The position numbers were made by a program, and so were the translations under genes. A stretch of DNA of 57,760 bases from a virus (Duplodnaviria > Caudoviricetes): the IMG/VR virus record IMGVR_UViG_3300048858_000021, positions 1 through 57,760 of that record. One strand, written 5' to 3'. Of this stretch, positions 10,379 through 32,600 are shown in pieces; the stretch's first letter is position 1; the number at the start of each line of letters is the position of its first letter. The notes under the pieces were generated by a model. That model saw only the letters and a list, made by a program, of their open reading frames with translations, was not told the DNA's origin and made no database searches.

Positions 10379-13260
10379 GTGCCACGGCGAAGAAGGGCAG
10401 CGGGTGGGCTGAGAAGTTCGAGAAGTGGCTGACGACGGGCGAGCCCAACGAGAAGGGCGAGTACCGGGGCCACTGCCCCATCCACGAGGAGATCGGTGAG
10501 GGCACTCCGAGTGCCTCGTTCAACTTCGACAAGGGGCAGTTCTACTGCTTCTCAGAGGACATCGGAATGTCGATGGCCTCTCTCTGGTCGATCGTACGCG
10601 ACGACGAGCGCGAGGCGGGGTCGGAGCGCCCTCCCCGTGGTTCCCGACGCAGCAACGTGGAGAATCTGGACGCTGCCCGGCAGAGGAAGCGCGGCAAGGC
10701 GTCTCTGCCCACGGAGTCTCAGATCGAGAAGTGGCATGAGGCGCTCCGTCGTTCTCAGTCTGCCCTCAAGGTGATCCAGGACAAGACGGGATGGGACCTG
10801 TCGACCATCGACGAGTTCCAGATCGGCTATAGCATCCAGGACAGCCGGTACACGTTCCCGGTTCGCCATGAGAACGGCGAACTGATCAACGTCCGGAAGT
10901 ACAAGCCGAACGCCACCGGCAGCGTCGCGAAGGTGCTCGGCATCACCGGGCACAACGACACCGACCTCTTCCCGAGGCAGGTGCTCGCGAAGAACGACTG
11001 GGTGGTCCTCACCGAGGGCGAGAAGGACGCCATCACCGGTAACGCGAACGGCTTCCCCACCGTCACGGCTACCGGTGGCGCGAAGCGGATGCCGGAGCAC
11101 CTGGCGCAGATGTTCGCGGACAAGGTCGTCTTCATCTGCTACGACGTCGACGACACCGGCAAGGGCGGTGCGACGAAGGCGGCTATCCTCATCAGCCGCT
11201 ACGCGAAGTCTGTGCACATCGTCAACCTCCCGCTGGACGCGAAGAAGAAGGAAGACCTCACCGACTACTTCCACGTTCACGGGTACACGCCGAAGGAGTT
11301 CCAGACGCTCCTCGACGAGGCGAAGGAGAACCCCTTCACCGAGCGGGAGTACGCAAGCCGAGTCGGCAAGGGAGCCCGGGACGTCAGCCTCGAGCAGTCG
11401 ATGAGCGCTGAGCACGGCAACGACCCTCTCGCCATCACGGTGAGCGTGGCCGGGAAGGTGCAGCCTGCCTATCTCCTCCCGAAGACCGTCGCCTTCACGT
11501 GCGATCAGGACTACGGCAACAAGTGCGGGAAGTGCGACATGCACCTCCGGTACAACGGCGCTGTCTCGAAGGGCATCGCCAGAGACAACCCGGTGCTCCT
11601 GGAACTGATCGACGTTACCAAGATGCGCAGCGATCAGATTCTCGCGAAGGAGGTCGCAGGAGCGCCTCCCACCTGCCCTCGCCTCATGATCGAGGAAGAG
11701 GAGCGATGGAACGTAGAGGAACTGGTCGTCATGCCGTCGGTCGACGACCGCACCGAGGACCAGCAGAACCCGATCAGCCGTCGAGTCTACAATGTCGGAG
11801 AGTACAACACTCCGATTAACACGGTGAGCCGCCTCGTCGGCGTCAATACGACGGACCCGCGCAATCGTCGCAGCGTGTTCCAGACGTGGGAGGCGGAGCA
11901 GACCAAGACCAATCTAGATAAGTTCGAGATGACCGAGGAACTCAACGAGGCCCTCAAGATCTTCCGTCCGAAGAAGGGGCAGACGCCCATTCAGAAGATG
12001 AAGGAGATCGCCGACGACCTGGAAGCGAACATCACTCGCATCTACGGTCGACCGGAACTGCACATGGCGTACGATCTGATGTGGCATTCGGTCATGGACT
12101 TCAAGTTCCGTGGCGTGCAGTTGGGCAAGGGCTGGCTCGAGATCCTGGTCATGGGTGACACCCGTACCGGCAAGAGCGAAGCCGCGCTCAAGTTGACCGA
12201 TCACTATCAGTCGGGCGTCTTGAAGTCCTGTGAGGGAGCCACGCTGGCGGGTCTGGTGGGCGGTGCGCAGCAGACCGGAAACTCGTGGATGATCACCTGG
12301 GGAACCATCCCGCTCAACGACCGTCGTCTCGTCTTCCTCGACGAGGCTTCCGGCCTGAGCGACAAGGGCATCATCGAGCAAATGTCGGCGGTCCGTTCTT
12401 CTGGTCGTGCTCAGGTGACCAAGATTATCTCTCAGGAGACAAGTGCGAGAACGAGGCTCGGGTGGATCTCCAACCCTCCCGACGGCCGTCCCATCGCAGA
12501 GATGAGCCGGGGAGCCATCGAGGCTATCCAGATGCTCATCAAGAACCCAGAGGACATCGCCCGGTTCGACTTCGCCCTGGCGGCTGCGAGCAGCGACGTG
12601 GGGTCGGCAACGATCAACAGCATGACGCCGCCGAAGGTGGACCACGTCTACACCCGGGAACTGTGCAGCGCTCTCGTGGCGTGGGCATGGTCCCGGAGGG
12701 TTGACGATGTGGTGTGGGCCGACGATGCCGAGGAGACCATCCTCAAGATCGCAGAGGAACTCGGCAAGTCGTACATTCCGGAGCCCCCGCTGATCCAGGC
12801 CGAGAACGTCCGGGTGAAGTTGGCCCGCATCGCCGTCGCGATGGCCGCACGAGTGTTCAGCGCCACCTCTGACGGTGAGAAGGTCGTGGTTCGCAAGAAG
12901 CACGTCATCGATGCTCGTAAGTTCCTGGACTACATCTACGGCATGGACACGATGGGATACCAGCAGTTCTCCCACCGGACCATCACCAGCCGCCAGCGCG
13001 CCGAGGAGTCGATCAAGACCGCACGTCGCTACCTGATCAAGAACGAAGACGCAATGCGCGGCCTCCTGTCGTGCATGGGCTCTGACTTCAAGGTGCGCGA
13101 CTTCGAGGAATTCGCGGGAATGAGCCGTGACGAGGCTCAGATCACTGTGCGGGACCTCATGGGAATGAAGATGCTGCGTCGCATGAATCGTGGATACATC
13201 CGAATGGAGCCGCCTCTCCTGAAGATGCTCAAGGACATGGAGGATGACTTCGACCTGTAG
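10375..13260 (+). CDS. Primase-helicase: Zn finger + TOPRIM primase fused to MCM-like AAA+ helicase
   Basis: CPIHEE..FYCF Zn finger; EGEKD and CYDVDDTG TOPRIM; second Cys cluster; GDTRTGKS, VFLDE, ARFDF (MCM SRFD-like). Confidence 0.88.
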   Translation: MSATAKKGSGWAEKFEKWLTTGEPNEKGEYRGHCPIHEEIGEGTPSASFNFDKGQFYCFSEDIGMSMASLWSIVRDDEREAGSERPPRGSRRSNVENLDAARQRKRGKASLPTESQIEKWHEALRRSQSALKVIQDKTGWDLSTIDEFQIGYSIQDSRYTFPVRHENGELINVRKYKPNATGSVAKVLGITGHNDTDLFPRQVLAKNDWVVLTEGEKDAITGNANGFPTVTATGGAKRMPEHLAQMFADKVVFICYDVDDTGKGGATKAAILISRYAKSVHIVNLPLDAKKKEDLTDYFHVHGYTPKEFQTLLDEAKENPFTEREYASRVGKGARDVSLEQSMSAEHGNDPLAITVSVAGKVQPAYLLPKTVAFTCDQDYGNKCGKCDMHLRYNGAVSKGIARDNPVLLELIDVTKMRSDQILAKEVAGAPPTCPRLMIEEEERWNVEELVVMPSVDDRTEDQQNPISRRVYNVGEYNTPINTVSRLVGVNTTDPRNRRSVFQTWEAEQTKTNLDKFEMTEELNEALKIFRPKKGQTPIQKMKEIADDLEANITRIYGRPELHMAYDLMWHSVMDFKFRGVQLGKGWLEILVMGDTRTGKSEAALKLTDHYQSGVLKSCEGATLAGLVGGAQQTGNSWMITWGTIPLNDRRLVFLDEASGLSDKGIIEQMSAVRSSGRAQVTKIISQETSARTRLGWISNPPDGRPIAEMSRGAIEAIQMLIKNPEDIARFDFALAAASSDVGSATINSMTPPKVDHVYTRELCSALVAWAWSRRVDDVVWADDAEETILKIAEELGKSYIPEPPLIQAENVRVKLARIAVAMAARVFSATSDGEKVVVRKKHVIDARKFLDYIYGMDTMGYQQFSHRTITSRQRAEESIKTARRYLIKNEDAMRGLLSCMGSDFKVRDFEEFAGMSRDEAQITVRDLMGMKMLRRMNRGYIRMEPPLLKMLKDMEDDFDL

Positions 13261-13324
13261 AGGCGGTGTCTGCGGTACGATGGTGGGGCGCCCGGCAAGG
13301 GGCGCAGAGAGACAGGAGAGTGGG

Positions 13325-13831
13325 ATGCCTACGATGTCGAGGCGGCAGCGTGAAGCCGCACAGACGTTCCGGGAGAAGCACGGCGACGAGGCCGCTGCCG
13401 AGATGCTGGCCCTGATGGGCTTCACCGACCAGCAGATCGCTCGGGCGTTCATGCCGGTCCCGGCGCAGCCGGACCAGGGGTCTGTCGTGCGGTTCACGGC
13501 CCTCGGGACGTACCGCTACGCGGCGATCCGGATGGGTGCGTACTGGTACGTCACCAGCGACGGCGATCGCCGCTCGACGGCTCTGCCGAAGATGACCTGG
13601 GACGCGCTGCTCGAGTGGGGAGGCCCGCAGTTGATCGAGACGCTCGAGGTCATGGTGCCCAACTCGCAGTCGGTGTCCCCGTTCGAGTTCGACCGCCTGT
13701 CCGCTCACAACCGGTTCCTCCAGAACAAGGTCGACATCGCACTTGGTTCTCTGGCAGGAGCGATCACCCCTCCGGAGGGCAAGTCCAGGACGGACTATGC
13801 GATCGAGATCCTTCAGGCTGGCGACCGATGA
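13325..13831 (+). CDS. Hypothetical protein (168 aa)
   Basis: AGGAG RBS; GGTACGAT box upstream; coupled to next gene. Confidence 0.7.
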   Translation: MPTMSRRQREAAQTFREKHGDEAAAEMLALMGFTDQQIARAFMPVPAQPDQGSVVRFTALGTYRYAAIRMGAYWYVTSDGDRRSTALPKMTWDALLEWGGPQLIETLEVMVPNSQSVSPFEFDRLSAHNRFLQNKVDIALGSLAGAITPPEGKSRTDYAIEILQAGDR

Positions 13832-14649
13832 GGGTGCTCGTCCTGGGCTGTGGCCCTGCCGGTCTCATGGCAGCGCACGCAGCCGCTCTCGCTGGGCACG
13901 ACGTGCTCATCTACTCGAAGGCCCGGAAGAGCCGCCTGTACGGCTGCCAGTACCTCCACGCGCCCATCCCCGGCATCAGCGAGGACCAGCCCGTCGACGT
14001 GTCGTACCACCTGGACGGCACGCCGGAGGACTACCGTCGCAAGGTCTACGGCCCGACGTGGAAGGGTAAGGTGAGCCCGGAGACGCTGGACGCCGACCAC
14101 CACGCCTGGGACATCCGCGCCGCGTACGATCGTCTCTGGGACATGTACGGGTCGTACGTTCAGGACATCGACCTCCAGAACCCCGAGGCGCTCGAGGGCG
14201 TTCTGCACTCTGGTCAGGACGTCACGTTCTCGACGGTCCCCGCCCCGCTGCTCTGCGCAGACCCCGGGCACGACTTCGGCTTCGAGACGGTGTACGCGCT
14301 GGGCGACGCGCCGGAGGAGGGGCAGTACGTGCCCTTCAGACCGGCTCAGAACTACGGCGAGCACGCCGTGGTGTGCAACGGCCTGGACGTGCCGTCGTGG
14401 TATCGCCTGGCGACCGTGCATGGCTACACCACCGTCGAGTGGCCCGGTAGTAAGAAGCCGCCCGTCGCTGGCGTGGCAGAGGTCACGAAGCCGCTCGCGA
14501 CCGACTGCACCTGCCTCCCGGACGTGCACCGGCTGGGACGTTACGGCGCCTGGCGCAAGGGCGTCCTCAGCCATGAGGCGTTCTTCGAGGCAACCATCGT
14601 CCTCGGCAACTACTCCCTCGGTATTCAGGACACGTTGGAGGGGCTGTGA
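13828..14649 (+). CDS. FAD-dependent oxidoreductase (UDP-galactopyranose mutase-like architecture)
   Basis: MRVLVLGCGPAGLMAA Rossmann GxGxxG; GCQYLH; STVP; C-terminal LGRYGAW. Confidence 0.8.
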   Translation: MRVLVLGCGPAGLMAAHAAALAGHDVLIYSKARKSRLYGCQYLHAPIPGISEDQPVDVSYHLDGTPEDYRRKVYGPTWKGKVSPETLDADHHAWDIRAAYDRLWDMYGSYVQDIDLQNPEALEGVLHSGQDVTFSTVPAPLLCADPGHDFGFETVYALGDAPEEGQYVPFRPAQNYGEHAVVCNGLDVPSWYRLATVHGYTTVEWPGSKKPPVAGVAEVTKPLATDCTCLPDVHRLGRYGAWRKGVLSHEAFFEATIVLGNYSLGIQDTLEGL

Positions 14650-15296
14650 GGCTGGCACCGCGTCGCGCGCAGGTGGCGGCCCCTGGCGAGGTCCTCCGGC
14701 CGATCATCGGCCTGGACGTCGACGGCACGTTCGCCAGGTACCATGAGCACTTCGAGCGGTTCTTCCGAGAGTGGTCCGGCAAGGAGACCCCGGGCACCGG
14801 CTACGCGGGCGGGCAGTCGTTCGCCTCGTACCTCGGCACCTCGAAGGCCACGTATCGACAGGCGAAGTTGGCGTACCGCCTCGGCGGCTGGAAGCGCTCG
14901 ATGCCGGTGTACGACGGCGCTGCCGACATGGTCCGTGCCTGGCGTAGCCTCGGGGCCGAGGTCGCCATCTGCACCACCCGCCCGTTCCTGAGCCTCGAGG
15001 CGGTGGAGAAGGACACGCACCACTTCCTCCGGCGCAACGGCATCCAGCACGATTATGTCATTCACGGCGAACGGAAGTACCTCGACCTGGCGCGTTTCGG
15101 TACCGACCGCATTGCATTCGTGGCCGACGACCTTCCCGAGATGGTTCGTCAGGCTGACTCTGCCGGTCTCATCTCCGTCATTCGTACGCAGCCGTACAAC
15201 GCGGACATGGACTGGAACATCGACGCCTATGACATTGAGCAACTTATGTGGGTAGGCTGTGCTCTAATCGAAGAGTGGAAGGCGAAGCACGCATGA
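14646..15296 (+). CDS. HAD-family phosphatase / nucleotidase
   Basis: GLDVDGT motif I, CTTR motif II, K motif III, ADD motif IV. Confidence 0.85.
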   Translation: MRLAPRRAQVAAPGEVLRPIIGLDVDGTFARYHEHFERFFREWSGKETPGTGYAGGQSFASYLGTSKATYRQAKLAYRLGGWKRSMPVYDGAADMVRAWRSLGAEVAICTTRPFLSLEAVEKDTHHFLRRNGIQHDYVIHGERKYLDLARFGTDRIAFVADDLPEMVRQADSAGLISVIRTQPYNADMDWNIDAYDIEQLMWVGCALIEEWKAKHA

Positions 15297-15616
15297 AGAT
15301 CACCGTAAAGGTCGAGGCCGATCCCGGGGAGGAGCAGGCCGACGCACTTGTGTACGCCGAGACTCTTCAGAACGCTGCGAACCTGTTCGTCGAGAAGAAC
15401 CGCTTCTACGGCGGCGCCTTCCGTGAGCAGGGGTGGATGGGAAACCTCGCTCGCATCATGAGCAAGACGGCCCGGTTGCGTTCGATGCAATGGAGACCGG
15501 CTCCGCTCGACGACGCGAACGAGACGGTAGACGACACGCTCGTCGACCTCGTCAACCTGTCAGTGTTCGGCATCATCAACCGGCAGGAGCGGAACATCTG
15601 GGGTCGACGTGGCTGA
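15293..15616 (+). CDS. DUF1599/Nmad1-like nucleotide-modification-associated protein
   Basis: KNRFYGGAF...RIMSKTARL...ETVDDTLVDLVN matches KNxDYG/KxxRL/DTxxDL pattern. Confidence 0.7.
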   Translation: MKITVKVEADPGEEQADALVYAETLQNAANLFVEKNRFYGGAFREQGWMGNLARIMSKTARLRSMQWRPAPLDDANETVDDTLVDLVNLSVFGIINRQERNIWGRRG

Positions 15617-15938
15617 CGAGGGCTTCGGCTATCTGAGCGGTCCGAGCGGCGACCCCCGCATGGTGGGGGTTGGCGTCGGTCCTGCGCCCACATGGCCCGA
15701 GGGCGGCGAGCCTGAGGCCACCTGCCGCGTGTGCGGCGAGCCCCTGTGGGAGAGCGATCCGGACGTGTGGGTGCACCACTCCGACCAGGACGTCCACGAG
15801 GGGGTCCCGGAAGGCTGTGCGCACGTCGTGTCGTACGGCTCTCGGAACCCCGACTCGCCGCGCTTCGGCCCGGACGAGTTCTGCGAGAACTATGCCACTC
15901 CGAGTTCCGACTACTGCACGGACCACGGTGGAGAATGA
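15609..15938 (+). CDS. Cys/His-rich hypothetical protein
   Basis: CRVC, FCEN..YCTDH; operon-packed. Confidence 0.6.
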   Translation: MADEGFGYLSGPSGDPRMVGVGVGPAPTWPEGGEPEATCRVCGEPLWESDPDVWVHHSDQDVHEGVPEGCAHVVSYGSRNPDSPRFGPDEFCENYATPSSDYCTDHGGE

Positions 15939-16237
15939 GCATCGCAACGGATACGTTCGAGCAGTTGACGGAAGGTCTCGAGGCGAAGACGCCTTGCCTG
16001 ATCCATGAGGTTCTCGGAAGCGACGACCCCTGCGGGAACGAGGCGGGGCGGCTCGTCTTCTGGCGTAACCCGTGCGGTAACGGCAAGATGGTCGAACCTC
16101 CGTTCGCCACGGCGCTGTGTCGAGCCCATGCACAGGAACTCGTGCGCGGCTTCGACTCTGGCATCTTCGCCTGTGAGGCCTGTGACACTGTCATTCACGA
16201 CTCGACGCACGCGATCAAGAGAGTAGAGGATCTGTAG
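15935..16237 (+). CDS. Cys-rich hypothetical protein (100 aa)
   Basis: ATGA overlap; LCRAH, CEAC. Confidence 0.6.
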   Translation: MSIATDTFEQLTEGLEAKTPCLIHEVLGSDDPCGNEAGRLVFWRNPCGNGKMVEPPFATALCRAHAQELVRGFDSGIFACEACDTVIHDSTHAIKRVEDL

Positions 16238-19200
16238 TGGGTCGGTTCGTCTCCCTTCACCACCACTCGACTTTCTCCTACCAGGATGGTTTCCGCCAGC
16301 CCGAGGAGCACGTCAAGAGGGCCGCAGAACTCGGTATGGAGGCGATGGCGCTCACCGAGCACGGCAACGTGACCAGCCACGTCAAACTTGAGCGTGCGGC
16401 CCTTGAGGCTGGCATCAAGCCCATCTTCGGGGTCGAGGCGTACACGGGCGGTGTGGGGGAGAACGCCAGCCGGTACAAGTGGCACCTCACGATGCTGGCG
16501 CAGACGCAGACCGGCCTCGCCAACCTGTACGAGATGGTCTCGCGAGGATGGGCCGAGGGCTACTACTACGAGCCCACCATCTCAGGCGACATGCTGGCAG
16601 AACTCCACGAAGGCGTCATTGTCCTGAGCGGGTGCAGCGGTTCGAAGTTGGCCGTAGACCTCCTGGGTGGCAAGGGCACACCGCTCCACAAGGCGGACAT
16701 CCAGGCGGCCACCAGGACGGCAGAGAAGTTCCGTGAACTCCTCGGGGACCGGTACTACCTAGAGGTCCAGGCGTTCCCGGAACTCGAGCGCACGAAGGCG
16801 ATCAACGAGTCGTACCTCCGTATCTCGGAGAAGACTGGCATCCCGATCGTAGTCACGACGGACGTGCACTACCCGCACGCTCACGACAATGAGATGCAAC
16901 TCCTCATTCATGCCATCGACCGTGGCGGTAAGAACAACACGATCGAGAAGCAGGCGCAGGGCTGGGGGTATGACATCCCGCTCGTGGACCACCCGGACAA
17001 GGTGCTCGTCAAGAAGTTGCGTGCCACGGGATTCTCCAAGTCGGAGGCGTGGGCGGCAATCGAGACGTCGAATGAGATCGCACAGCGCATCGACGTCAAA
17101 CTGCCTCGGCTCGAAGACCTCAAGTACACCGGCAGCATCGACGCGTCGAAGGAGCAGTTCCGCCAGGCAATCCGCGACGGGTGGGTCTACCGGGGCTTCG
17201 ACAGGCTGCCGACGAAGACCCGCAAGGAGTACAGTCGCCGTCTCAAGTACGAGATGGAAATGATCGAGGAAAAGGGCTTCGTTGACTACTTCCTGACGGT
17301 GGCCGACGTGGTCATCTTCGCGAAGAGCAACGGGATCCCTGTCGGCCCCGCCCGAGGTTCTGCCGCAGCCTCACTGGTCTGCTTCATCATGCGGATCACC
17401 GAGGTCAACCCGATGTTCTTCCCGAACCTGATCTTCGAGCGGTTCATCGACATCAACCGGCACGACCTCCCCGACATCGACCTTGACTTTGACGACGAGC
17501 GTCGCTATCTCATTCGCGAGTACCTTGTGATGAAGTACGGTGAGGAGCGCGTCGGCAACATCGGAACGTTCACGAAGTACAAGGGCAAGAACAGTATCGA
17601 TGACGTGGCTCGGGTCTACCAGATCCCGAAGTTCGCCACCGACGGCGTCAAGGAGATGCTCATCGAGCGTTCCTCCGGCGACCTGCGTGCAGGTGCCACC
17701 ATCGAGGACACTATCGAGATGTTCCCGAAGGTGAAGGACATCTTCGATAAGTACCCGGCGCTCTACAAGGCGCAGCAGTTGGAGGGCAATCTCCGGGGCT
17801 TCAGCGTGCACGCCGCTGGGCTGGTCGTGGCAAACGACCCGCTCACCAACTCCGTTGCGGTGTACCGGCGCTTCGACCAGAAGGGCAACGTGATCGGCGA
17901 GGTGCTGTCCATTGACAAGCATGACGCCGAGTACATCAATGCCCTCAAGATCGATGTGCTGGGGCTCACGACGATGGGCATGATCCGCCGGTGTCTCGAA
18001 ATGATCGGCATGACGCTCGAGGAACTGTACGCGGTTCCGCTCGACGACGAGAAGGTGTTCGACGGCTTCCGGCGTAACGAGGTCATCGGCGTGTTCCAGT
18101 TCGACGGGCGTGCGATGCGCTCTGTGAACCGAGAGGTGAAGCCGGACACGTTCGCCGAGGTCTGCGACATCAACGCGCTTGCACGACCCGGCCCCCTGCA
18201 CTCCGGCGCAGCAGCCGAGTACATCATGGTGAAGCACGGGAAGAAGAAGGTGGAGATTCTCCACCCGGTCGTCGCGCGCATCACGGCTCACACGAATCAG
18301 CAGATCGTGTATCAGGAGCAGATTCTCCAGGTCGTTCGCGAACTCGGCAACTTCACGTGGGAGGAGGCCGCGCTCATCCGCAAACTGATCTCGAAGAAGC
18401 AGGGCGAGCAGGCGTTCAACCGCATGATGGACAAGTTCGTCAAGGGCGCTATGGAGAACGGCCTCAACGAGCAGAACGCCGTCAAGGTCTGGAAGCAGTT
18501 GGTCACCGCTGGCGCGTACGCCTTCAACGCTGCGCACTGCGTGTCGTACGGGATGCTCGCCTACTGGACCATGTGGCTCAAGCAGAACTATCCGCTCGAG
18601 TTCTATTGCGCTGCCCTCCAGAAGTACGACCCGAAGACGAAGGGGTTCGATCTCCTCAAGGAGGCGATGCTGGACAAGGGCATCGAGGTCCTCCCTCCGG
18701 ACCCAATCGAGTCGGACATCACATGGTCGTTCGACAAGGCGGGCAACAGCCTTCGGGCGGGCTTCCTCCAGGTCTCGGGTATTGGCGAGAAGACCGCCGT
18801 GCCCATGCTAGAGTTCAGGGAGAAGTGGCTGGCCGATGGCAACGATCCGTCGGACTTCACGTGGGACCACTACACCGCCGTGAGAGGTATCGGACCGGTC
18901 GCCATGCGGAAGGTGCGAGAGTTCGTTGAGGACCCCGACCCGTTTGGGGTCCACGTCATGGGCCAGACGCTTCGAAAGGTCCGGCGGCGCCTGTATAACG
19001 AGGAGGATATCCTCGGCATCCCGTACCCGTACAGCAAGAGCGAGGACGTGCCCTACGAGGCGATCACCGGAGCGCACATCTGGTCTGGTATCGTTCGAGA
19101 GCGTAACCTCAAGGACATCTACGAACTCCACCGGTCTCGTACCGGTGAGGAACTCGACCCTAAAACGGTCCGGGAACCGAAGTACGTGAACTACGTCGTT

Positions 19201-19398
19201 GTCACGGGAGAAGATGAGACCGGCCCGCTGGTCATCACCATCCCCCGGTTCGGCGGCCTGTACGAGCGGTACAAGGATCTCATCTGGAACATGGATGTCA
19301 AGCGGGATATCCTTGTGGTCGAGGGGTACAAGCGGCGAGAATACCGCAGGGCGATCACCGCGAAGAAGATCTGGGTCATCAACCCAGAGAAGTTCTGA
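16237..19398 (+). CDS. dnaE: DNA polymerase III alpha subunit (family C)
   Basis: PHP SLHHHSTFS/TEHG; GPARGSAAAS; PDIDLDF; HAAG; KIDVLGL; YAFNAAH. Confidence 0.97.
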   Translation: MGRFVSLHHHSTFSYQDGFRQPEEHVKRAAELGMEAMALTEHGNVTSHVKLERAALEAGIKPIFGVEAYTGGVGENASRYKWHLTMLAQTQTGLANLYEMVSRGWAEGYYYEPTISGDMLAELHEGVIVLSGCSGSKLAVDLLGGKGTPLHKADIQAATRTAEKFRELLGDRYYLEVQAFPELERTKAINESYLRISEKTGIPIVVTTDVHYPHAHDNEMQLLIHAIDRGGKNNTIEKQAQGWGYDIPLVDHPDKVLVKKLRATGFSKSEAWAAIETSNEIAQRIDVKLPRLEDLKYTGSIDASKEQFRQAIRDGWVYRGFDRLPTKTRKEYSRRLKYEMEMIEEKGFVDYFLTVADVVIFAKSNGIPVGPARGSAAASLVCFIMRITEVNPMFFPNLIFERFIDINRHDLPDIDLDFDDERRYLIREYLVMKYGEERVGNIGTFTKYKGKNSIDDVARVYQIPKFATDGVKEMLIERSSGDLRAGATIEDTIEMFPKVKDIFDKYPALYKAQQLEGNLRGFSVHAAGLVVANDPLTNSVAVYRRFDQKGNVIGEVLSIDKHDAEYINALKIDVLGLTTMGMIRRCLEMIGMTLEELYAVPLDDEKVFDGFRRNEVIGVFQFDGRAMRSVNREVKPDTFAEVCDINALARPGPLHSGAAAEYIMVKHGKKKVEILHPVVARITAHTNQQIVYQEQILQVVRELGNFTWEEAALIRKLISKKQGEQAFNRMMDKFVKGAMENGLNEQNAVKVWKQLVTAGAYAFNAAHCVSYGMLAYWTMWLKQNYPLEFYCAALQKYDPKTKGFDLLKEAMLDKGIEVLPPDPIESDITWSFDKAGNSLRAGFLQVSGIGEKTAVPMLEFREKWLADGNDPSDFTWDHYTAVRGIGPVAMRKVREFVEDPDPFGVHVMGQTLRKVRRRLYNEEDILGIPYPYSKSEDVPYEAITGAHIWSGIVRERNLKDIYELHRSRTGEELDPKTVREPKYVNYVVVTGEDETGPLVITIPRFGGLYERYKDLIWNMDVKRDILVVEGYKRREYRRAITAKKIWVINPEKF

Positions 19399-19415
19399 CA
19401 GAGAGAAGTGGGAAC

Positions 19416-20072
19416 ATGATCAGCGAGACGATGCTGCCTGAGACCAGCCGAGACAGCGACAAGAGCGACGTCGCCTTCCACGATATGGAGCAGACGTGGG
19501 AGCGGTGGGCTGACCGCCGCGTGCGGTTCTTCGACTTCCAGAAGGACGCTGCCGAGTCGGCTCTCGCCGTGCTGGGCATCATCATGCCCATCGACGAGAT
19601 CGCCATCATGGTGACCGACGAGCACCAGGAGTACCATCTCCTCGAGGGTGCCGTGCGCAACGGGTGGCGCGTGTTCAACGCCGCCGAGGACGCCGTCGAG
19701 ACGTACCCGATCAAGTCGGAGTACCGGGTGCACTACACCTTCCTCGACCACCCGGAGACCGGCTACCGCCTGGAGATCATGCGTCTCCTGGACGGCATCA
19801 GCCCGCTCCACATGGCGCTCTCCTCGAACGCCTTCCTCGCCGACCACCTCACCCCGGTGATGGTGCACGCCTCGTTCAAGGTGAAGGACCTCACGCAGTT
19901 GGGTGAGATCGAGTCCCGCCTGACCGACAGCGGTTCGTTCATGCTGGCGCAGGGATGCCGGTCGACCTACGGCGCGTTCGCGTACTACGCGCGCACCGAG
20001 AGCAACGACCTCGGGTCCGACGACCTCACGGTCTACCTGAAGCCCCGGGTGAACCTGCGGGACCAGGCGTGA
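19416..20072 (+). CDS. Hypothetical protein, possible VOC/glyoxalase-like fold
   Basis: IDEIAIMV...LEIMR...VHASFKV resembles VOC metal-ligand strands; fold is inferred. Confidence 0.55.
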   Translation: MISETMLPETSRDSDKSDVAFHDMEQTWERWADRRVRFFDFQKDAAESALAVLGIIMPIDEIAIMVTDEHQEYHLLEGAVRNGWRVFNAAEDAVETYPIKSEYRVHYTFLDHPETGYRLEIMRLLDGISPLHMALSSNAFLADHLTPVMVHASFKVKDLTQLGEIESRLTDSGSFMLAQGCRSTYGAFAYYARTESNDLGSDDLTVYLKPRVNLRDQA

Positions 20073-20767
20073 CCGCCCCACGAATGGCGCTCGGCTACCC
20101 GCCACGGGTGGCGGTGTTCGGCGCTCGTAGCGGCAGCCTCGGCGCGGCAGTGGCTACCCGGCTCCGGGCGCAGGGCGTGAGCGTGCGCACGTACGGCATC
20201 GGTGACGAGGACGTGCCCATCTCGTACAACTTCATGACGCTGGACGCCGAGATGGCCGACTACATGCCGTCGGACGTCCTGGTCACCACCGGCATGAACC
20301 GCCCTCGCAAGATCGACGCGGCGGACTTCGAGGCGGTGTTCAACGAGACGATGAACGCCAACGTGACGCTGCCCCTGCGGGTCCTCCGTGCAGCCATCGA
20401 GAACGTTACGGCCGACGTTCGGTCGGTGGCGTTCATCAGCAGCAACAGCGCACATATCGCGAGGACAGAGAGCGCGGCGTACTGTGCGAGCAAGGCCGCC
20501 CTTTCGATGGCGATCCGTGTGGCTGCGAGGGAGCAGGCGGGTCGGGGTCCGATCGTCTATGGGTACGAACCCGGTCTCCTCGACGGCACCCCGATGACGG
20601 AGAAGAGCGCTGCCTCGTTCGGTGGTGCGCTGCACCGCATCCCCGGTCTACCGCCCCGCGAGGGTCTGGACGTGGAGTGGTTCGCGGAGTACGTCGCCGC
20701 CAACCTCATCCACCCGTCGATGGCCCTCAACGGCACGCTGATGCGCCTGGACGGAGGAGAGCAGTGA
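20069..20767 (+). CDS. Short-chain dehydrogenase/reductase (SDR)
   Basis: GARSGSLG cofactor loop, NAN, ISS, catalytic YCASK, EPG. Confidence 0.88.
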   Translation: MTAPRMALGYPPRVAVFGARSGSLGAAVATRLRAQGVSVRTYGIGDEDVPISYNFMTLDAEMADYMPSDVLVTTGMNRPRKIDAADFEAVFNETMNANVTLPLRVLRAAIENVTADVRSVAFISSNSAHIARTESAAYCASKAALSMAIRVAAREQAGRGPIVYGYEPGLLDGTPMTEKSAASFGGALHRIPGLPPREGLDVEWFAEYVAANLIHPSMALNGTLMRLDGGEQ

Positions 20768-21156
20768 GCGCGGGAAAGGTCTACATCTCTGGCCCGATCA
20801 TGCACGCGACCAGCGAGCAGCAGGACGCATTCGGTGCAGCGAAGCGCGTGCTCGAGCGCCTCGGGATGGAGCCGGTGAACCCGAAGGAGGTGGACGCCTG
20901 CCCCGAGAGGGACTGCGCCCGCGCTCCGCACGAACTCGAGAAGGGCATGGAGCATTCCTGGGCGTGCTATCTCAAGTACGACCAGAAGGCCCTCCTCGAG
21001 TGCGACGCGATTCTCATGCTGCCCGGCTGGATGGAAAGCCGTGGCGCCATCGAGGAGAACCACACCGCGATCATCTCCGGAATGCGTGTGCTGTACTTCA
21101 CGAACCGGGGTGTCATGGAGATCAACCGCTACGGTGCGATTCGCACCTTCGACTGA
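20764..21156 (+). CDS. DUF4406 / nucleoside 2-deoxyribosyltransferase-like protein
   Basis: KVYISGP, VNP, LLECDAILMLPGWMESRGA..E. Confidence 0.85.
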   Translation: MSAGKVYISGPIMHATSEQQDAFGAAKRVLERLGMEPVNPKEVDACPERDCARAPHELEKGMEHSWACYLKYDQKALLECDAILMLPGWMESRGAIEENHTAIISGMRVLYFTNRGVMEINRYGAIRTFD

Positions 21157-21169
21157 AAGTGGGACAGCA

Positions 21170-21595
21170 ATGACCGGAAACTCGAACCACCCGCCCATCC
21201 AGGCGTACGCCCTGGACCTCCACCAGAACAGCGTCGACCATGGCTTCTGGCCCGACGCGGTCGAGGGCGAGCCCGGCTTCCCGACGCGCAACTTCGGCGA
21301 GATGATCGCCCTGATGCACTCGGAACTGAGCGAGGCGCTGGAGGAGCACCGGGCCGACCGCCCGGCCTTCTACCACGACCCGGACACGGGCAAGCCGGAG
21401 GGCATCGCGATCGAACTGATCGACGCGGCCATCCGCGTCTTCGACGCGCTGGGCAGCATGGTCGACACTGCGCAGGGCGGCATCGAGGGCGCCGACCAGG
21501 ATGGAAACCCGATCGTCCTGCCGATCGACAACCTGTTCAACCTCAAGGCCGTGTTCAACAGCGGTCGTCCGCCGAAGCACGGCAAGGCGTACTGA
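21170..21595 (+). CDS. MazG-like NTP pyrophosphohydrolase
   Basis: IALMHSELSEALEE...ELIDAAIRVFD. Confidence 0.85.
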   Translation: MTGNSNHPPIQAYALDLHQNSVDHGFWPDAVEGEPGFPTRNFGEMIALMHSELSEALEEHRADRPAFYHDPDTGKPEGIAIELIDAAIRVFDALGSMVDTAQGGIEGADQDGNPIVLPIDNLFNLKAVFNSGRPPKHGKAY

Positions 21596-21680
21596 CCGGA
21601 TCGAGCAGGGCGGCCCTTGTCCGTGGTACGATGTGTCTCATCGGCCAGGGCAAGGGCCGCTGTCGTAGTGGGGAGAAGCA

Positions 21681-22802
21681 ATGACAGGCAAGGACGTCGA
21701 GCGCTGGGCCGACGAGTTCATGTTCACTGCCGAGACGAGTGACGCTGCGGCTGGCCCGCAGGCGTACCTCCTGGGTGGTCCCAACGACCCCCTCGGTCAG
21801 ATCGCCGCGTGTGCGAAGATGTACCTCGGCGAAGTCGTGCGCGACCTGGCGGACGTCACCGACGACGAGCGCCGGTACTACGCTGCGGAGATGCAGAAGA
21901 CGAAGTTGAAGATGCCCCTCGAGGCTGTCAACTTCCACTTCATGATCGAGGGCGTCACGCGCGGTTTCACGCACCAGATGGTGCGCCAGCGCACGGCGGC
22001 CTACGCTCAGGAGTCGACGCGGTTCGCGGTCAAGGAGGACATGACCACTGCGACCGCCCTCCCGCCCTCCCTCGCAGGCACCGTGTCGTTCGACCAGTGG
22101 GCCGAGGGGATGGGCTGGGACGAGAAGACCGGCATCCCGGAGGAGTGGGGGCGTTTCGCCAGCGAACGGCAGAAGCAGCGCTTCCGTTGGGACGAGGCGG
22201 TCAAGACCGTCGGCTCGGCGTACATGGACCTCGTGAACACGGGGATGCCTGCCGAGGACGCGCGCGGTCTGATGCCGACCAACATCACGACGCGACTCAA
22301 CTACATCACGAACCTCCGTGGCATCCTGGACCACGCGGGCAACCGGCTGTGCACTCAGGCGCAGTTCGAGTGGCGCGTGGTGTTCGCTCAGATCGCGAAC
22401 GCGCTGCGTGCCTACGGGCGCTCGCAGACGTACCGCGTTCGGGAGCGCGTCGACCGCTCAGACGAGGGTCGGGGCTCGTACGCCAACGAGGCCGAGCGCC
22501 CGTCTGCCTGGCAGTACGAGGTCCTCGCCGACCTGTTCCGGCCCGTCTGCTACGCGACCGGCAAGTGCGAGTTCATGGCGAACTTCGACCGCAAGTGCAG
22601 CATCCGAGACCGGGTGCAGGCCAGCCACGACATCAACCGGTCGAGCACCGAGTGGGGCGAGGAGTACGACAACGTCCAGGGCAACCCGCTGATCACCGGC
22701 GTCGGCCCGCAGAGCGTGGTCCGCGACGAGGGCGGCACCCCCGTCTTCATCGGCGCCATCCACCCGCGCGAGTGGCTCGCCGATCCGGCGGCTGCACGAT
22801 GA
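21681..22802 (+). CDS. thyX: Flavin-dependent thymidylate synthase ThyX (divergent)
   Basis: FMIEGVTRGFTHQMVRQRTAAYAQESTRF (RHRx7S with H to Q), EDARGLMP, AQFEWR. Confidence 0.85.
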   Translation: MTGKDVERWADEFMFTAETSDAAAGPQAYLLGGPNDPLGQIAACAKMYLGEVVRDLADVTDDERRYYAAEMQKTKLKMPLEAVNFHFMIEGVTRGFTHQMVRQRTAAYAQESTRFAVKEDMTTATALPPSLAGTVSFDQWAEGMGWDEKTGIPEEWGRFASERQKQRFRWDEAVKTVGSAYMDLVNTGMPAEDARGLMPTNITTRLNYITNLRGILDHAGNRLCTQAQFEWRVVFAQIANALRAYGRSQTYRVRERVDRSDEGRGSYANEAERPSAWQYEVLADLFRPVCYATGKCEFMANFDRKCSIRDRVQASHDINRSSTEWGEEYDNVQGNPLITGVGPQSVVRDEGGTPVFIGAIHPREWLADPAAAR

Positions 22803-23239
22803 GCGGGGCGCTGGTCGCTCTGACGGAGCCGAGCCCTCGGGAGGAGATGCTCCTTCAGACCGCTCGTGCTGCCGCGTCGTTCTCGACGTGCAAGCGCCGT
22901 CAGGTGGGTGCAGCCATCATCGGACCGGACGACAAGATGATCGCGATGGGGTACAACTCCATGAATCCCATGCACGGGTCGTGCGGTGACGGTGACTGCC
23001 CGCGCGGGAACCTCTCCTACGACGACCAGCCGAAGGACGTCGGGTACACGAACCCCGACGCGCCGTGCCACGCGCTGCACGCCGAGGAGTGGGCCGTCAT
23101 CAACGCGATGGGGCTGGGTGCCACGCTCTACATCCTTCGCCAGTCGTTCATAGTCGTGACGCACAAGCCGTGCCCGAACTGCGAGCGCTTCATCCGTGGG
23201 GTGGGGCTCCAGAACATCGTCTACGACGACCGTGGCTAA
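22799..23239 (+). CDS. dCMP deaminase-family protein
   Basis: STCKRRQVGA, GYN, HAEE, PCPNC zinc deaminase motifs. Confidence 0.9.
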   Translation: MSGALVALTEPSPREEMLLQTARAAASFSTCKRRQVGAAIIGPDDKMIAMGYNSMNPMHGSCGDGDCPRGNLSYDDQPKDVGYTNPDAPCHALHAEEWAVINAMGLGATLYILRQSFIVVTHKPCPNCERFIRGVGLQNIVYDDRG

Positions 23240-23489
23240 GCCGCAGCCCGCCCTCCCTGAGCCCACGGACCCCGCCGAGTACGCGGGGCTCGTGGGCCAG
23301 ATGGTCGAGGACGCACGTGACGAGGACGGGGACATCTTCTACTGCCCGCACAGCGCGGCCATCATCGCCCACACGGGCGGCCTCGTGAGCGGCACGGGCG
23401 AGGACGCCGACTGGTGGGTGCACGACAGTGGAGAGTGCGGCTTGCCCGCTCAGGCGAAGAGGCCAAAGCACCTTCGACGCGGACACTGA
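23232..23489 (+). CDS. Hypothetical protein (85 aa)
   Basis: GTG 23232 overlapping upstream gene; CPH..WVH..GEC. Confidence 0.55.
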   Translation: MAKPQPALPEPTDPAEYAGLVGQMVEDARDEDGDIFYCPHSAAIIAHTGGLVSGTGEDADWWVHDSGECGLPAQAKRPKHLRRGH

Positions 23490-23594
23490 GTCCTTTCTGT
23501 CCGTTCTGGGAGTAGGTGTACCCATCTGGGCGATCTGTCTGCTAGAGTGGTCGTACCGGCTCAAGAGGGCCGGTCAGCCGCAGCAGGAGGAATC

Positions 23595-27983: not shown

Positions 27984-28237
27984 CAGCGCAGCCCGAAGGG
28001 CTGACGTCAGCCTACCCTACGAGGCAAGTCGAGGGGTAGGAAGGCGGGGAGAACGGTGGTTCCCGGGGAGGGCGGTTTGGAGTCGAGCCCCCTCCCCGGG
28101 TCGCCTAGAAAGATCGAACTTCGGAGTTCCGGGGTGTCTCGGATCAATGTCGACAAAGGGGCTCCTCCGGGCTCCTGTGGCATATGGGTGGAATTGGGCC
28201 GTTCTGTACGGGTGAATGTCTCCTCCGTCAGCCGCCA

Positions 28238-28346
28238 GGGACCTACCCCACCCGGGGTAAATGTGTGGTAGCCTCACGCGGGCGCGCGTGATGGCGGGTA
28301 CAGTTCTGGCGTCGCCGGGCGGCGCAGGGGCCGACCGGAGAGGAGA
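28238..28346. repeat. Three-box non-coding element, copy B
   Basis: GGGACCTACCCC-N22-CCTCACGCG-N4-CGCGTGA-N39-CCGACCGGAGAGGAGA. Confidence 0.85.
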
Positions 28347-28356
28347 ATCGGCGCTA

Positions 28357-29028: not shown

Positions 29029-29140
29029 TTCTCCTCAATGGCAGTAGTAGTAGATTTATCGCGTCAAGAAGAGAGAGAGTAGTAATTCGAGTAATATAGA
29101 GAGTGTTGGGGGAGAGGGCCTATAAGGGTCTCGAGGTTTC
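29029..29140. other. AT-rich element copy B
   Basis: Conspicuously AT-rich; ATATAG-GTGTT-GGAGAG-AAGGGTCTCGAGGT like 10095-10137. Confidence 0.45.
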
Positions 29141-29167
29141 TAGTTTCGACGGGATGGGAGTAGGGCA

Positions 29168-29371: not shown

Positions 29372-29373
29372 CC

Positions 29374-30996: not shown

Positions 30997-31018
30997 GATG
31001 GGCCGCCAGGAGGTCACA

Positions 31019-31735: not shown

Positions 31736-31738
31736 GGC

Positions 31739-32595: not shown

Positions 32596-32600
32596 GTGCT

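What the first reader, a model, noticed from the sequence alone, without database searches (positions are those of the whole stretch)
13828..23239. Candidate uncharacterised nucleotide-modification pathway wrapped around the phage DnaE
Seen: mostly translationally coupled genes for a UGM-like FAD oxidoreductase, HAD phosphatase, DUF1599/Nmad1-like protein, DnaE, VOC-like protein, SDR, DUF4406 deoxyribosyltransferase-like protein, MazG, divergent ThyX and dCMP deaminase. Established: base-substituting phages combine a synthase, nucleotide-pool purging enzymes (MazG, HAD) and a dedicated polymerase, and Nmad domains were defined by linkage to such loci. Inference: the flavoenzyme, SDR and VOC-like proteins are not needed for ordinary dTMP supply, so they may build a non-canonical pyrimidine nucleotide or sugar adduct that this DnaE incorporates. 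I know no characterised pathway with this set. Caveats: no glycosyltransferase or kinase was recognised, and the SDR could simply be a FolM-like pteridine reductase.
Basis: partly seen in the sequence, partly recalled or inferred. Interest (0 to 1): 0.78.

Follow-up and report, generated by a model that had tools for sequence, protein, structure and literature searches.

The report
Phage nucleotide-metabolism genes flanking DnaE
A complete phage genome carries, around its DNA polymerase gene, a conserved block of nucleotide-handling enzymes that includes an unstudied virus-only flavoprotein, but nothing found here shows that its DNA contains unusual bases.

Summary

The window is a complete 57,760-bp virus record with terminal repeats.

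The block is not unique. A flavoprotein + HAD-phosphatase pair upstream of DnaE recurs in 126 GenBank actinophage records and in 80 IMG/VR loci:
- HAD phosphatase in 71 of 74 loci.
- DnaE in 49 of 49 loci.
- ThyX in 30 of 43 loci nearby, and elsewhere in 10 of the 10 further records tested.

SDR, VOC, DUF1599, DUF4406, MazG and the deaminase come and go between relatives.

The flavoprotein belongs to a compact virus-specific family. UGM is only one of several equally distant fold neighbours. The phosphatase family is NT5C-like, that is, deoxynucleotidase-like.

Nothing supports a modified base:
- No ThyA-like hydroxylase, GT1 or GT2 glycosyltransferase, or nucleotide kinase was found in the genome.
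- Extreme restriction-site avoidance (AGCT 0 against about 164 expected) suggests the DNA is exposed to restriction.

Best reading (0.45): a dNTP-pool conditioning module with an uncharacterised redox side branch. Non-canonical nucleotide: about 0.2.

The parts
13325..13831 (+). g2, small protein of unknown function. It is the first gene after a 64-nt gap that carries a GGTACGATG motif.
   Evidence: phrog_1342 E 2.8e-16, no Pfam match. 4-nt overlap with g3. No tblastn match in the related loci.
13828..14649 (+). g3, compact (273 aa) two-domain flavoprotein of a virus-specific family. GenBank phage records annotate it as 'oxidoreductase'.
   Evidence: phrog_8720 6.2e-98. AF2 pLDDT 95. Fold neighbours are DAAO, UGM and aromatic hydroxylases, TMq 0.43-0.54. 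1051 50%-identity cluster representatives at E<=1e-3. Atlas clusters are 95-100% viral.
14646..15296 (+). g4, HAD-superfamily phosphatase of an NT5C-like (5'(3')-deoxyribonucleotidase-like) family.
   Evidence: DxDGT motif invariant: D24, D26, G27, T28. 28 of 45 family members match Pfam NT5C, best E 2.4e-10; the window copy itself does not. Lies next to g3 in 71 of 74 loci.
15293..15616 (+). g5, DUF1599 (Pfam name 'nucleotide modification associated domain 1') protein.
   Evidence: PF07659 26.3 bits against cut-off 25. 4 of 9 orthologues scanned match at E<=0.01. Present in 13 of 43 loci.
15609..16237 (+). g6 (15609-15938) and g7 (15935-16237), two small Cys-rich proteins of unknown function just upstream of DnaE.
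   Evidence: No family match at threshold. Overlapping junctions. No tblastn match in the related loci.
16237..19398 (+). g8, DnaE-type DNA polymerase III alpha.
   Evidence: PHP 6e-36, DNA_pol3_alpha 6e-69, finger 8e-43. Best cultured relatives are 47-49% identical.
19416..20072 (+). g9, VOC-fold protein (methylmalonyl-CoA epimerase / glyoxalase I-like) with an N-terminal helix.
   Evidence: No Pfam, PHROG or NCBIfam match. Atlas structure matches to Glyoxalase_4 clusters, TM 0.55-0.59 by query and 0.71-0.79 by target. AF2 pLDDT 80.5; Foldseek top hit is MMCE 3gm5, 1.6e-6. No homologue in 50,697 phage records.
20069..20767 (+). g10, classical short-chain dehydrogenase/reductase, start overlapping the end of g9.
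   Evidence: adh_short 1.4e-14. phrog_3142 'FabG-like'. YCASK motif in the translation. Always present with VOC, 12 of 12 loci.
20764..21156 (+). g11, DUF4406 protein (nucleoside 2-deoxyribosyltransferase-like).
   Evidence: PF14359 1.8e-16; phrog_355 1.5e-24.
21170..21595 (+). g12, MazG-like NTP pyrophosphatase.
   Evidence: phrog_3301 1.2e-22, no Pfam match. An acidic ELSEALEE ... ELID pattern is visible in the translation.
21681..22802 (+). g13, divergent long ThyX (373 aa) with a Cys-bearing C-terminal extension. It follows an 85-nt gap with the second GGTACGATG motif.
   Evidence: Thy1 96.9 bits. TIGR02170 69.5 against cut-off 87.9. RQR in place of RHR. S112, R114, R195 and R222 are invariant; C290, C296 and C306 are invariant in 24 sequences.
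22799..23239 (+). g14, dCMP deaminase.
   Evidence: dCMP_cyt_deam_1 3e-16. phrog_174 2.2e-26. HAE and PCPNC motifs in the translation.

Best explanation
This is the replication-linked nucleotide-pool module of a DnaE-replicating actinophage lineage, and the DNA it feeds is canonical.

Shown by family membership:
- dCMP deaminase supplies dUMP.
- A long-form ThyX that keeps the uracil- and phosphate-binding Ser and Arg residues makes dTMP.
- A MazG-like pyrophosphatase, an NT5C-like 5'-deoxynucleotidase and a DUF4406 (deoxyribosyltransferase/N-hydrolase-like) protein can take unwanted (d)NTP to (d)NMP, then to nucleoside, then to base plus sugar.

Inferred:
- The virus-specific flavoprotein is always paired with the nucleotidase. 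It oxidises the soluble product that the nucleotidase releases, or its precursor.
- The SDR and the VOC epimerase/isomerase-like protein, where present, carry that small molecule further by reduction or isomerisation.
- Together they form a disposal or salvage side branch that keeps the pyrimidine deoxynucleotide pool in the state ThyX and DnaE need.
- The block is expressed as two units, g2-g12 and g13-g14, each behind a shared GGTACGATG-containing gap.
For: - Family assignments.
- The ThyX residues aligned to T. maritima S88, R90, R147 and R174 are invariant in 24 clade members. The residue roles are recalled from the ThyX structure literature.
- Flavoprotein-nucleotidase adjacency in 71 of 74 loci, and DnaE in 49 of 49.
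- ThyX lies within 10 kb in 30 of 43 loci. It lies elsewhere in the record in 10 of the 10 tested out of the 13 remaining.
- The accessory genes vary between relatives, as expected of a modular pool-tuning set rather than one obligate pathway.
- The flavoprotein family is acidic to neutral (median pI 6.06), which suits a small-molecule enzyme more than a DNA binder.
- The complete genome has no hydroxymethylase, GT1 or GT2, or nucleotide kinase.
- AGCT occurs 0 times against 164 +/- 10.7 expected, and GCCGGC 0 against 41.8 +/- 7. This implies the DNA is cleavable at such sites.
Against: - No substrate is known for the flavoprotein, SDR or VOC protein. Their placement in a 'disposal or salvage branch' is inference from neighbourhood only.
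- A nucleotidase beside a thymidylate synthase is counter-intuitive for plain dTMP supply. In classical cases, phage dNMP phosphatases accompany base replacement (recalled: PBS2 dTMPase).
- DUF1599 carries the Pfam name 'nucleotide modification associated'.
- The ThyX is atypical: RQR motif, a 130-aa Cys-bearing extension, and a score below the TIGR02170 cut-off.
- Site avoidance does not exclude a partial or context-specific modification.
Confidence: 0.45

Rival explanations
1. First reader's reading. The flavoprotein, with the SDR, VOC protein and DUF1599, makes a non-canonical pyrimidine nucleotide or a sugar-modified nucleotide. MazG and the nucleotidase purge the competing canonical nucleotide, and the phage DnaE incorporates the product.
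For: - The logic matches known base-replacing phages: a synthase plus purging enzymes plus their own polymerase (recalled).
- The flavoprotein-nucleotidase pair is virus-specific and tightly linked to replication genes.
- The structural neighbours of the flavoprotein include N-heteroaromatic ring hydroxylases: MHPCO, HspB and a Bacillus niacini dihydroxypyridine monooxygenase.
- Phage flavoenzymes do act in base modification: NGTO of PaMx11 (PMC11472151, passages read) and the flavin-bound ThyA homologue that makes 5hodCMP (PMC13326640, abstract and passages).
- The Pfam DUF1599 match.
- The atypical ThyX.
Against: - No ThyA homologue, GT1 or GT2, thymidylate kinase or dNK in the complete genome.
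- SDR is present in only 27 of 43 relatives, VOC in 11 and DUF1599 in 13.
- The flavoprotein occurs in at most 126 of 1443 phage records with a DnaE homologue.
- Complete avoidance of AGCT and GCCGGC, and near-complete avoidance of CCGCGG.
- The ThyX uracil-binding residues are intact.
- NGTO entries 8Z2O and 8Z79 are not among the 50 PDB matches listed.
- No report of unusual DNA in these phage clusters was found.
Confidence: 0.2
2. Cofactor support for ThyX. The flavoprotein and the SDR regenerate or supply the reduced flavin, pterin or folate that the phage thymidylate synthase consumes, with the SDR acting as a FolM- or PTR1-like pteridine reductase.
For: - ThyX was found in every flavoprotein-bearing record that was examined fully: 30 of 43 in the locus, and 10 of 10 of the others tested.
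- ThyX chemistry needs reduced FAD and methylene-tetrahydrofolate (established knowledge).
- The ThyX extension with three invariant Cys could be a redox or metal site that docks a partner (inference).
Against: - No FolM, PTR1 or dihydropteridine-reductase entry appears among the 9 PDB matches or the 25 NCBIfam matches shown for the SDR.
- ThyX regenerates tetrahydrofolate rather than dihydrofolate, so no folate reductase is needed (established knowledge).
- This reading does not explain the invariant pairing with a deoxynucleotidase.
- ThyX is common in actinophages in general, so the co-occurrence may be simple lineage inheritance.
Confidence: 0.15
3. Counter-defence. The nucleotidase, MazG and the redox enzymes destroy host-made antiviral nucleotides (chain terminators, signalling nucleotides), or they compensate for dNTP-depleting defences.
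For: - The enzymes act on nucleotides and the flavoprotein family is virus-restricted.
- Gene content is variable and mosaic, as is typical of arms-race genes.
- The strong restriction-site avoidance shows that this phage is under heavy defence pressure.
Against: - No homology to any characterised anti-defence enzyme was seen in the Pfam, PHROG or NCBIfam scans.
- The position inside the replication operon, conserved across hosts of six genera, fits a core replication-support role better than a host-specific counter-measure.
Confidence: 0.1
4. The flavoprotein, SDR and VOC genes are unrelated auxiliary metabolic genes (host-metabolism morons). They merely ride in the early operon and have no nucleotide substrate.
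For: - PHROG files the SDR family under 'moron, auxiliary metabolic gene and host takeover'.
- The VOC protein's nearest folds are CoA-ester epimerases and glyoxalases.
- The SDR's nearest matches are acyl reductases.
Against: - Morons are sporadic. The flavoprotein-nucleotidase pair keeps the same place in 71 of 74 loci, across DnaE identities of 40-71%.
- The flavoprotein family is almost wholly viral, which argues against a borrowed host-metabolism gene.
Confidence: 0.1

Closest known systems
Replication modules of cultured actinophages: Mycobacterium phage Hawkeye, PBI1 and PLot; Arthrobacter phage Wollypog; Microbacterium cluster EF phages such as AnnaSerena; Gordonia phages such as Xenia2 (cluster DV); Streptomyces phage Gibson
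   Same: The order is the same: (primase/helicase) - 'oxidoreductase' - 'nucleotidase/phosphatase' - (FabG-like SDR) - DnaE - ... - ThyX. Protein identity is 35-49% for the flavoprotein and 47-49% for DnaE.
   Different: - There is no DNA-level similarity beyond 357 bases of ThyX.
- The window adds a VOC-fold gene that has no homologue in 50,697 phage records.
- In the window the SDR sits after DnaE, coupled to the VOC gene.
- None of these modules has a published function.
Classical phage dTMP supply (dCMP deaminase plus thymidylate synthase, as in T4 cd/td; recalled)
   Same: dCMP deaminase and a thymidylate synthase are adjacent, with overlapping start and stop codons.
   Different: The synthase is a flavin-dependent ThyX with an unusual extension. 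The block also carries a flavoprotein, a nucleotidase, an SDR and a VOC protein, none of which has a role in that scheme.
Thymidine hypermodification clusters of M6, ViI and PaMx11-type phages, including the FAD oxidase NGTO (PMC8989533 and PMC5889632, search listing only; PMC11472151, passages read)
   Same: These are phage-encoded, include a compact GR2-family FAD enzyme, and PaMx11-type phages carry a flavin oxidoreductase in a base-modification route.
   Different: - No dUMP hydroxymethylase (ThyA homologue) is present here.
- No aGPT-Pplase or kinase was recognised in the ORFs scanned.
- NGTO acts on DNA, while the window's flavoprotein family is acidic.
- NGTO is not among the 50 PDB matches listed.
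Glycosylated 5-hydroxycytosine pathways of RB69, DLP3 and RL38J1 (PMC13326640, abstract and passages read)
   Same: These use a HAD phosphatase in phage sugar-nucleotide synthesis, and RL38J1 carries a UDP-galactopyranose mutase.
   Different: Those routes need a ThyA-type 5hodCMP synthase and DNA glycosyltransferases. Neither a ThyA homologue nor a GT1 or GT2 domain is found in this genome. The window's flavoprotein lacks the GLF domain.
Mammalian and bacterial NT5C 5'(3')-deoxyribonucleotidases (Pfam PF06941)
   Same: HAD core with DxDxT. 28 of 45 members of the window protein's family match PF06941.
   Different: The window copy itself does not reach E<=0.1 for PF06941. No solved structure matches by sequence. 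The substrate is untested.

Membership tests
UDP-galactopyranose mutase (UGM, Pfam GLF PF03275) | Match to the GLF domain | tested here: not met
   No PF03275 match at E<=0.1. Only the first ~35 residues match generic FAD/NAD(P) Rossmann models.
UDP-galactopyranose mutase (UGM, Pfam GLF PF03275) | Fold closer to UGM than to other flavoprotein families | tested here: not met
   UGM entries score E 2e-7 with TMq 0.46-0.52. They are interleaved with D-amino-acid oxidase (8.7e-8) and aromatic hydroxylases. The Atlas neighbours are Amino_oxidase and FAD_binding_3 clusters.
NT5C 5'(3')-deoxyribonucleotidase (PF06941) | HAD catalytic DxDxT motif | tested here: met
   D24, D26, G27 and T28 are invariant in 45 sequences.
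NT5C 5'(3')-deoxyribonucleotidase (PF06941) | Profile match to PF06941 | tested here: inconclusive
   28 of 45 family members match (best E 2.4e-10), but the window protein itself does not.
ThyX flavin-dependent thymidylate synthase (PF02511 / TIGR02170) | Profile match over the curated cut-off | tested here: inconclusive
   Pfam Thy1 96.9 bits against cut-off 24.8 is met. The NCBIfam equivalog TIGR02170 scores 69.5 against cut-off 87.9 and is not met.
ThyX flavin-dependent thymidylate synthase (PF02511 / TIGR02170) | RHRxxSxxxxSxR signature (recalled form of the motif) | tested here: not met
   The window reads RQRTAAYAQESTRF. The His is replaced throughout the 24-sequence clade, while the distal S and R are invariant.
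ThyX flavin-dependent thymidylate synthase (PF02511 / TIGR02170) | dUMP-binding residues equivalent to T. maritima S88, R90, R147 and R174 (roles recalled) | tested here: met
   They align to S112, R114, R195 and R222, all invariant.
VOC (glyoxalase/bleomycin-resistance/dioxygenase) superfamily | Paired beta-alpha-beta-beta-beta fold | tested here: met
   Atlas TM 0.71-0.79 by target to Glyoxalase_4 clusters. The AF2 model hits MMCE and glyoxalase I, E 1.6e-6 to 1e-4. There is no sequence-profile match.
Classical SDR | adh_short profile and YxxxK catalytic motif | tested here: met
   PF00106 54.5 bits. YCASK in the translation.
FolM/PTR1-type pteridine reductase | Closest matches among pteridine reductases | tested here: inconclusive
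   None appears among the 9 PDB matches, nor among the 25 of 93 NCBIfam matches that were shown. The other 68 were not visible.
DUF1599 / Nmad1 (PF07659) | Profile match over the gathering score | tested here: met
   26.3 bits against 25, a marginal pass. 4 of 9 orthologues match at E<=0.01, and one of them is over the cut-off.
MazG NTP pyrophosphatase | Profile match | tested here: inconclusive
   No Pfam or NCBIfam match. PHROG pyrophosphatase families match at 1.2e-22, 1.1e-12 and 4.2e-9.
dCMP/cytidine deaminase (PF00383) | Profile match and the zinc motifs HAE and PCxxC | tested here: met
   59.6 bits against 25. HAEEW and PCPNC in the translation.
5-hmdU-based thymidine hypermodification system | dUMP hydroxymethylase (ThyA homologue) | tested here: not met
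   PF00303 has no match in the six-frame search of the complete genome. The control rang in 10 of 14 genomes.
5-hmdU-based thymidine hypermodification system | 5-hmdU DNA kinase and aGPT-Pplase | not tested
   No dedicated search was run, because I was not sure of the accessions. No such family appeared in the Pfam or PHROG scans of the ORFs examined. ORFs in 27-30.8 kb and many small ORFs were not scanned.
Glycosylated-base systems | DNA glycosyltransferase | tested here: not met
   GT2 (PF00535) and GT1 (PF00534) have no match in the genome. The controls rang in 14 of 14 genomes. Other glycosyltransferase folds were not searched.
Base-replacement systems in general (synthase + purge + kinase + polymerase) | Phage-encoded nucleotide kinase for the new dNMP | tested here: not met
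   Thymidylate_kin (PF02223) and dNK (PF01712) have no match. Host kinases could substitute.

The most novel reading that the evidence does not exclude
The virus-only flavoprotein and its NT5C-like partner, together with the Cys-bearing long ThyX, carry out a so far undescribed flavin-dependent transformation of a pyrimidine deoxynucleotide, for example ring hydroxylation or oxidation of dUMP or dCMP. The product enters the DNA of a whole lineage of DnaE-replicating actinophages at partial or context-dependent levels. The SDR/VOC/DUF1599 subclade elaborates it further.
Probability: 0.17. Interest if true: 0.85.

Novelty: new variant of a known kind. Interest (0 to 1): 0.5.

Why it matters
- A compact flavoprotein family with over a thousand 50%-identity clusters is almost confined to viruses. 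It always sits next to a deoxynucleotidase and a DnaE polymerase, and it has no known substrate.
- It is carried by more than a hundred cultured, easily grown phages of laboratory hosts such as Mycobacterium smegmatis, Microbacterium foliorum and Gordonia. The question can therefore be settled at the bench with knock-outs, nucleoside mass spectrometry and enzyme assays.
- Either outcome would teach something:
  - a new branch of phage nucleotide-pool control linked to ThyX, or
  - less likely, a new DNA base chemistry.
- The long ThyX with three invariant cysteines is also an untested variant of an enzyme that is a drug target in mycobacteria.

Tried and rejected
1. Complex prediction of the flavoprotein with the nucleotidase (alignments A1 + A2). 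No verdict: score 0.00 against a mark of 0.32. This counts neither for nor against binding.
2. Bridging the flavoprotein to a named family by sequence.
   - phmmer and a profile against PDB matched only the dinucleotide-binding motif.
   - NCBIfam gave the same result.
   - The profile search of 1.84 billion representatives returned a closed family. Only the best 150 were listed, all about 200-330 aa, so no distant named relative could be read off.
3. hhalign of the DUF1599 family (A5) against the MazG-like protein, to test whether the two are related. Probability 0.1, so no relation.
4. Sequence search of the HAD and VOC proteins against PDB. Nothing usable.
5. Megablast of the whole block against phages. 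It matched only 357 bases of ThyX at 78%.
6. Sigma-70 promoter and terminator scan of 13000-23700. It found 0 promoter-like sites and 2 terminator-like sites on the wrong strand, fewer than in shuffles.
8. The paper that defined the Nmad domains (recalled: Iyer et al. 2013, Nucleic Acids Res.) is not held, and 'Nmad1' found no relevant paper. What I say about Nmad rests on the Pfam name alone.
9. I considered a DprE1/DprE2-like oxidise-then-reduce sugar epimerisation (FAD enzyme + SDR). It stays a bare analogy, because the flavoprotein is not of the VAO fold and no sugar-nucleotide enzyme is present.
10. Supplementary files of the papers were closed. Gene tables there might list homologues of these genes.

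Full report
WHAT IS THERE

The window is a complete virus record of 57,760 bases with direct terminal repeats. G+C is about 65%.
- Replication and nucleotide genes lie on the + strand in the first 23 kb.
- Terminase, portal, capsid, tape measure, tail and endolysin genes lie from 35.9 kb onward.

- A 273-aa flavoprotein: phrog_8720, E 6e-98. Pfam matches only the N-terminal dinucleotide-binding motif.
- A HAD phosphatase.
- A DUF1599 protein: 26.3 bits against a gathering score of 25.
- Two small Cys-rich ORFs.
- DnaE.
- A protein with no sequence-family match.
- An SDR.
- A DUF4406 protein.
- A MazG-like pyrophosphatase, recognised by PHROG only.
- A ThyX.
- A dCMP deaminase.

With the start codons I chose, 9 of the 12 junctions from g2 to g14 overlap by 1-8 nt. 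The remaining gaps are 13, 17 and 85 nt.

THE UNKNOWNS

Flavoprotein.
- It gives a confident model: pLDDT 95, from an alignment of 43 of the 120 listed homologues.
- Its PDB neighbours are D-amino-acid oxidase, pyridine- and phenol-ring hydroxylases and UDP-galactopyranose mutase. All have TMq 0.43-0.54 and E about 1e-7.
- 'UGM-like' is therefore no better than 'DAAO-like' or 'hydroxylase-like', and no GLF domain is matched.
- A profile search over 1.84 billion representatives finds 1051 proteins at E<=1e-3 (833 at 1e-10). The 150 listed are all of similar length.
- The Atlas clusters nearest to it are 95-100% viral.
- The family's median pI is 6.06.

Phosphatase.
- It keeps the HAD DxDGT motif.
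- 28 of 45 family members match Pfam NT5C, the 5'(3')-deoxyribonucleotidase family. The alignment used the window copy plus 44 of 71 orthologues. The window copy itself does not match.

The protein with no family match.
- It has a VOC fold.
- Atlas structure matches to Glyoxalase_4 clusters give TM 0.71-0.79 by target.
- An AF2 model (pLDDT 80.5) hits methylmalonyl-CoA epimerase and glyoxalase I first.

SDR.
- It has a YxxxK motif.
- Its best matches are ketoacyl and hydroxyacyl reductases, not pteridine reductases.

ThyX.
- It is divergent, and in a clade-wide way.
- In 24 sequences (the window plus 23 of 26 orthologues) the RHR signature reads RQR-like.
- The residues that align to T. maritima S88, R90, R147 and R174 are invariant.
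- A C-terminal extension of about 130 residues carries three invariant cysteines.
The roles of the T. maritima residues are recalled, not computed.

DISTRIBUTION

There is no close DNA relative in 50,697 phage records. By protein:
- The flavoprotein occurs in 126 records: Gordonia 46, Microbacterium 36, Mycobacterium 32, Streptomyces 9, Arthrobacter 2, Nocardia 1.
- The phosphatase occurs in 83 records.
- The SDR occurs in 47 records.
- The VOC protein occurs in none.

In Hawkeye and Wollypog the annotated order is oxidoreductase - nucleotidase - (FabG-like) - DnaE - ... - ThyX.

A scan of IMG/VR gave 160 relatives, of which the best 80 were kept. I searched them with tblastn, using the window's proteins at E<=1e-4. 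The two GenBank loci and the window's own locus were left out of the counts.
- Phosphatase: 71 of 74 loci with at least 1.5 kb downstream.
- DnaE: 49 of 49 loci with at least 6 kb downstream.
- Of the 43 loci with at least 9.9 kb downstream: ThyX 30, SDR 27, DUF1599 13, VOC 11, DUF4406 9, MazG 7, deaminase 7.
- VOC is always accompanied by SDR and DUF1599 (12 of 12 loci). It is confined to the subclade whose DnaE is 57-71% identical to the window's.
- Of the 13 loci without ThyX nearby I tested 10 whole records. All 10 have a ThyX elsewhere: four of the long type and six weaker, shorter matches.

These counts underestimate divergent orthologues. Conversely, DnaE homologues occur in 1443 phage records, so most phage DnaE genes do without the flavoprotein.

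DOES IT MODIFY DNA?

I found nothing that says so, and several things lean the other way.
- Six-frame searches of the complete genome find no ThyA homologue, no GT2 or GT1 domain, no thymidylate kinase and no deoxynucleoside kinase. The controls rang in 10-14 of 14 genomes.
- The Pfam and PHROG scans of the larger ORFs showed no aGPT-Pplase-like or DNA-modification family. ORFs in 27-30.8 kb and many small ORFs were not scanned.
- The accessory enzymes are not a fixed set.
- The genome avoids restriction sites to an extreme degree:
  - AGCT 0 against 164 +/- 10.7 in shuffles, or 142 by a Markov estimate.
  - GCCGGC 0 against 41.8 +/- 7.
  - CCGCGG 2 against 30.
  - GGGCCC 0 against 18.7.
  - A relative of the same subclade, L012, also has AGCT 0 against 64 expected.

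By inference, a phage whose C or T were wholly replaced would be under little pressure to purge such sites. This argues against blanket pyrimidine replacement. It does not argue against a partial or context-specific mark.

Literature searches found no report on the function of this block or on unusual DNA in these phage clusters.

READING

I take the block to be a replication-linked dNTP-pool module.
- The assignable part runs dCMP deaminase to ThyX, with MazG-like, NT5C-like and DUF4406 enzymes able to strip and recycle unwanted nucleotides.
- The flavoprotein, with the SDR and VOC protein where present, is inferred to work on the soluble product of the nucleotidase.
- The only two sizeable gaps in the block carry the same GGTACGATG motif. 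These are the only two exact copies in the genome. That suggests two transcription units, g2-g12 and g13-g14.

Confidence is 0.45, because the substrates are unknown. The rivals are:
- a non-canonical nucleotide (0.2);
- cofactor support for ThyX (0.15);
- counter-defence (0.1);
- unrelated auxiliary genes (0.1).

COMPARISON AND NOVELTY

The block is a new, distant member of a module already deposited and annotated in more than 100 cultured actinophages, but never characterised. Its VOC-SDR-DUF1599 extension is known only from uncultured viruses.

It shares single parts with two kinds of known system: thymidine hypermodification systems (a GR2 flavoenzyme, NGTO; PMC11472151, passages read) and glycosyl-5hoC systems (a HAD phosphatase and a UGM; PMC13326640, abstract and passages read). 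It fails their defining features: hydroxymethylase or hydroxylase, transferase and kinase.

I rate it a new variant of a known kind, with interest 0.5.

Noticed in passing
whole window; also L012:1-20186: Extreme avoidance of some palindromes. AGCT occurs 0 times against about 142-164 expected. GCCGGC 0 against 33-42, GGGCCC 0 against 19, CCGCGG 2 against 30, TGGCCA 0 against 9, CTGCAG 0 against 8. The related locus L012 also has no AGCT (64 expected). This points to a host range rich in type II systems of these specificities.
   Followed up: partly
window 22440-22802 (C-terminal part of ThyX); alignment A4: The long ThyX of this phage clade has a C-terminal extension of about 130 aa with the pattern P-x-C-Y-x-x-G-x-C ... 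D-R-x-C-x-I-R. C290, C296 and C306 are invariant and C224 nearly so in 24 sequences. This may be a metal or iron-sulfur site. I found nothing about it in the papers searched.
   Followed up: partly
window 23547-24929, + strand: A 460-aa protein just downstream of the block. It has a signal-peptide-like N-terminus, proline/valine-rich repeats and a C-terminal LAETG motif, followed by a hydrophobic stretch and a basic tail. That is the layout of a sortase-anchored (LAxTG-type) cell-wall protein, which is unusual cargo for a lytic-looking siphovirus.
   Followed up: no
window 13261-13324 and 21596-21680: The only two exact copies of GGTACGATG in the genome lie on the + strand in the two largest gaps of the block, within a shared TGTCyGyGGTACGATG context. 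They may be phage middle promoters (-10 TACGAT). No sigma-70 consensus site was found by the scan.
   Followed up: partly
L001:8998-12874; L010:19607-20536; table: Relatives carry interrupted replication genes. Wollypog's DnaE is split by an HNH endonuclease gene. The Microbacterium phages listed (cluster EF for AnnaSerena, PMC7302621) have DnaE in two genes. The ThyX of L010 carries an insertion with a Cys/His-rich, HNH- or intein-like stretch.
   Followed up: no
L031:10342-10890, L037:9284-9847, L039:8858-9427, L045:10087-10614, L063:12347-12856: In some relatives the DUF1599 protein has a C-terminal tail of about 70-90 aa of low complexity, ending in a conserved basic R-x-V-x-[DE]-x-P-[QK]-[AP]/[QS] motif that the window's copy lacks.
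   Followed up: no
window 28001-36000: GC skew rises to +0.195 at 28-30 kb and stays high to 36 kb. Small minus-strand genes lie at 33.5-35.9 kb just before the terminase. This region was not analysed.
   Followed up: no
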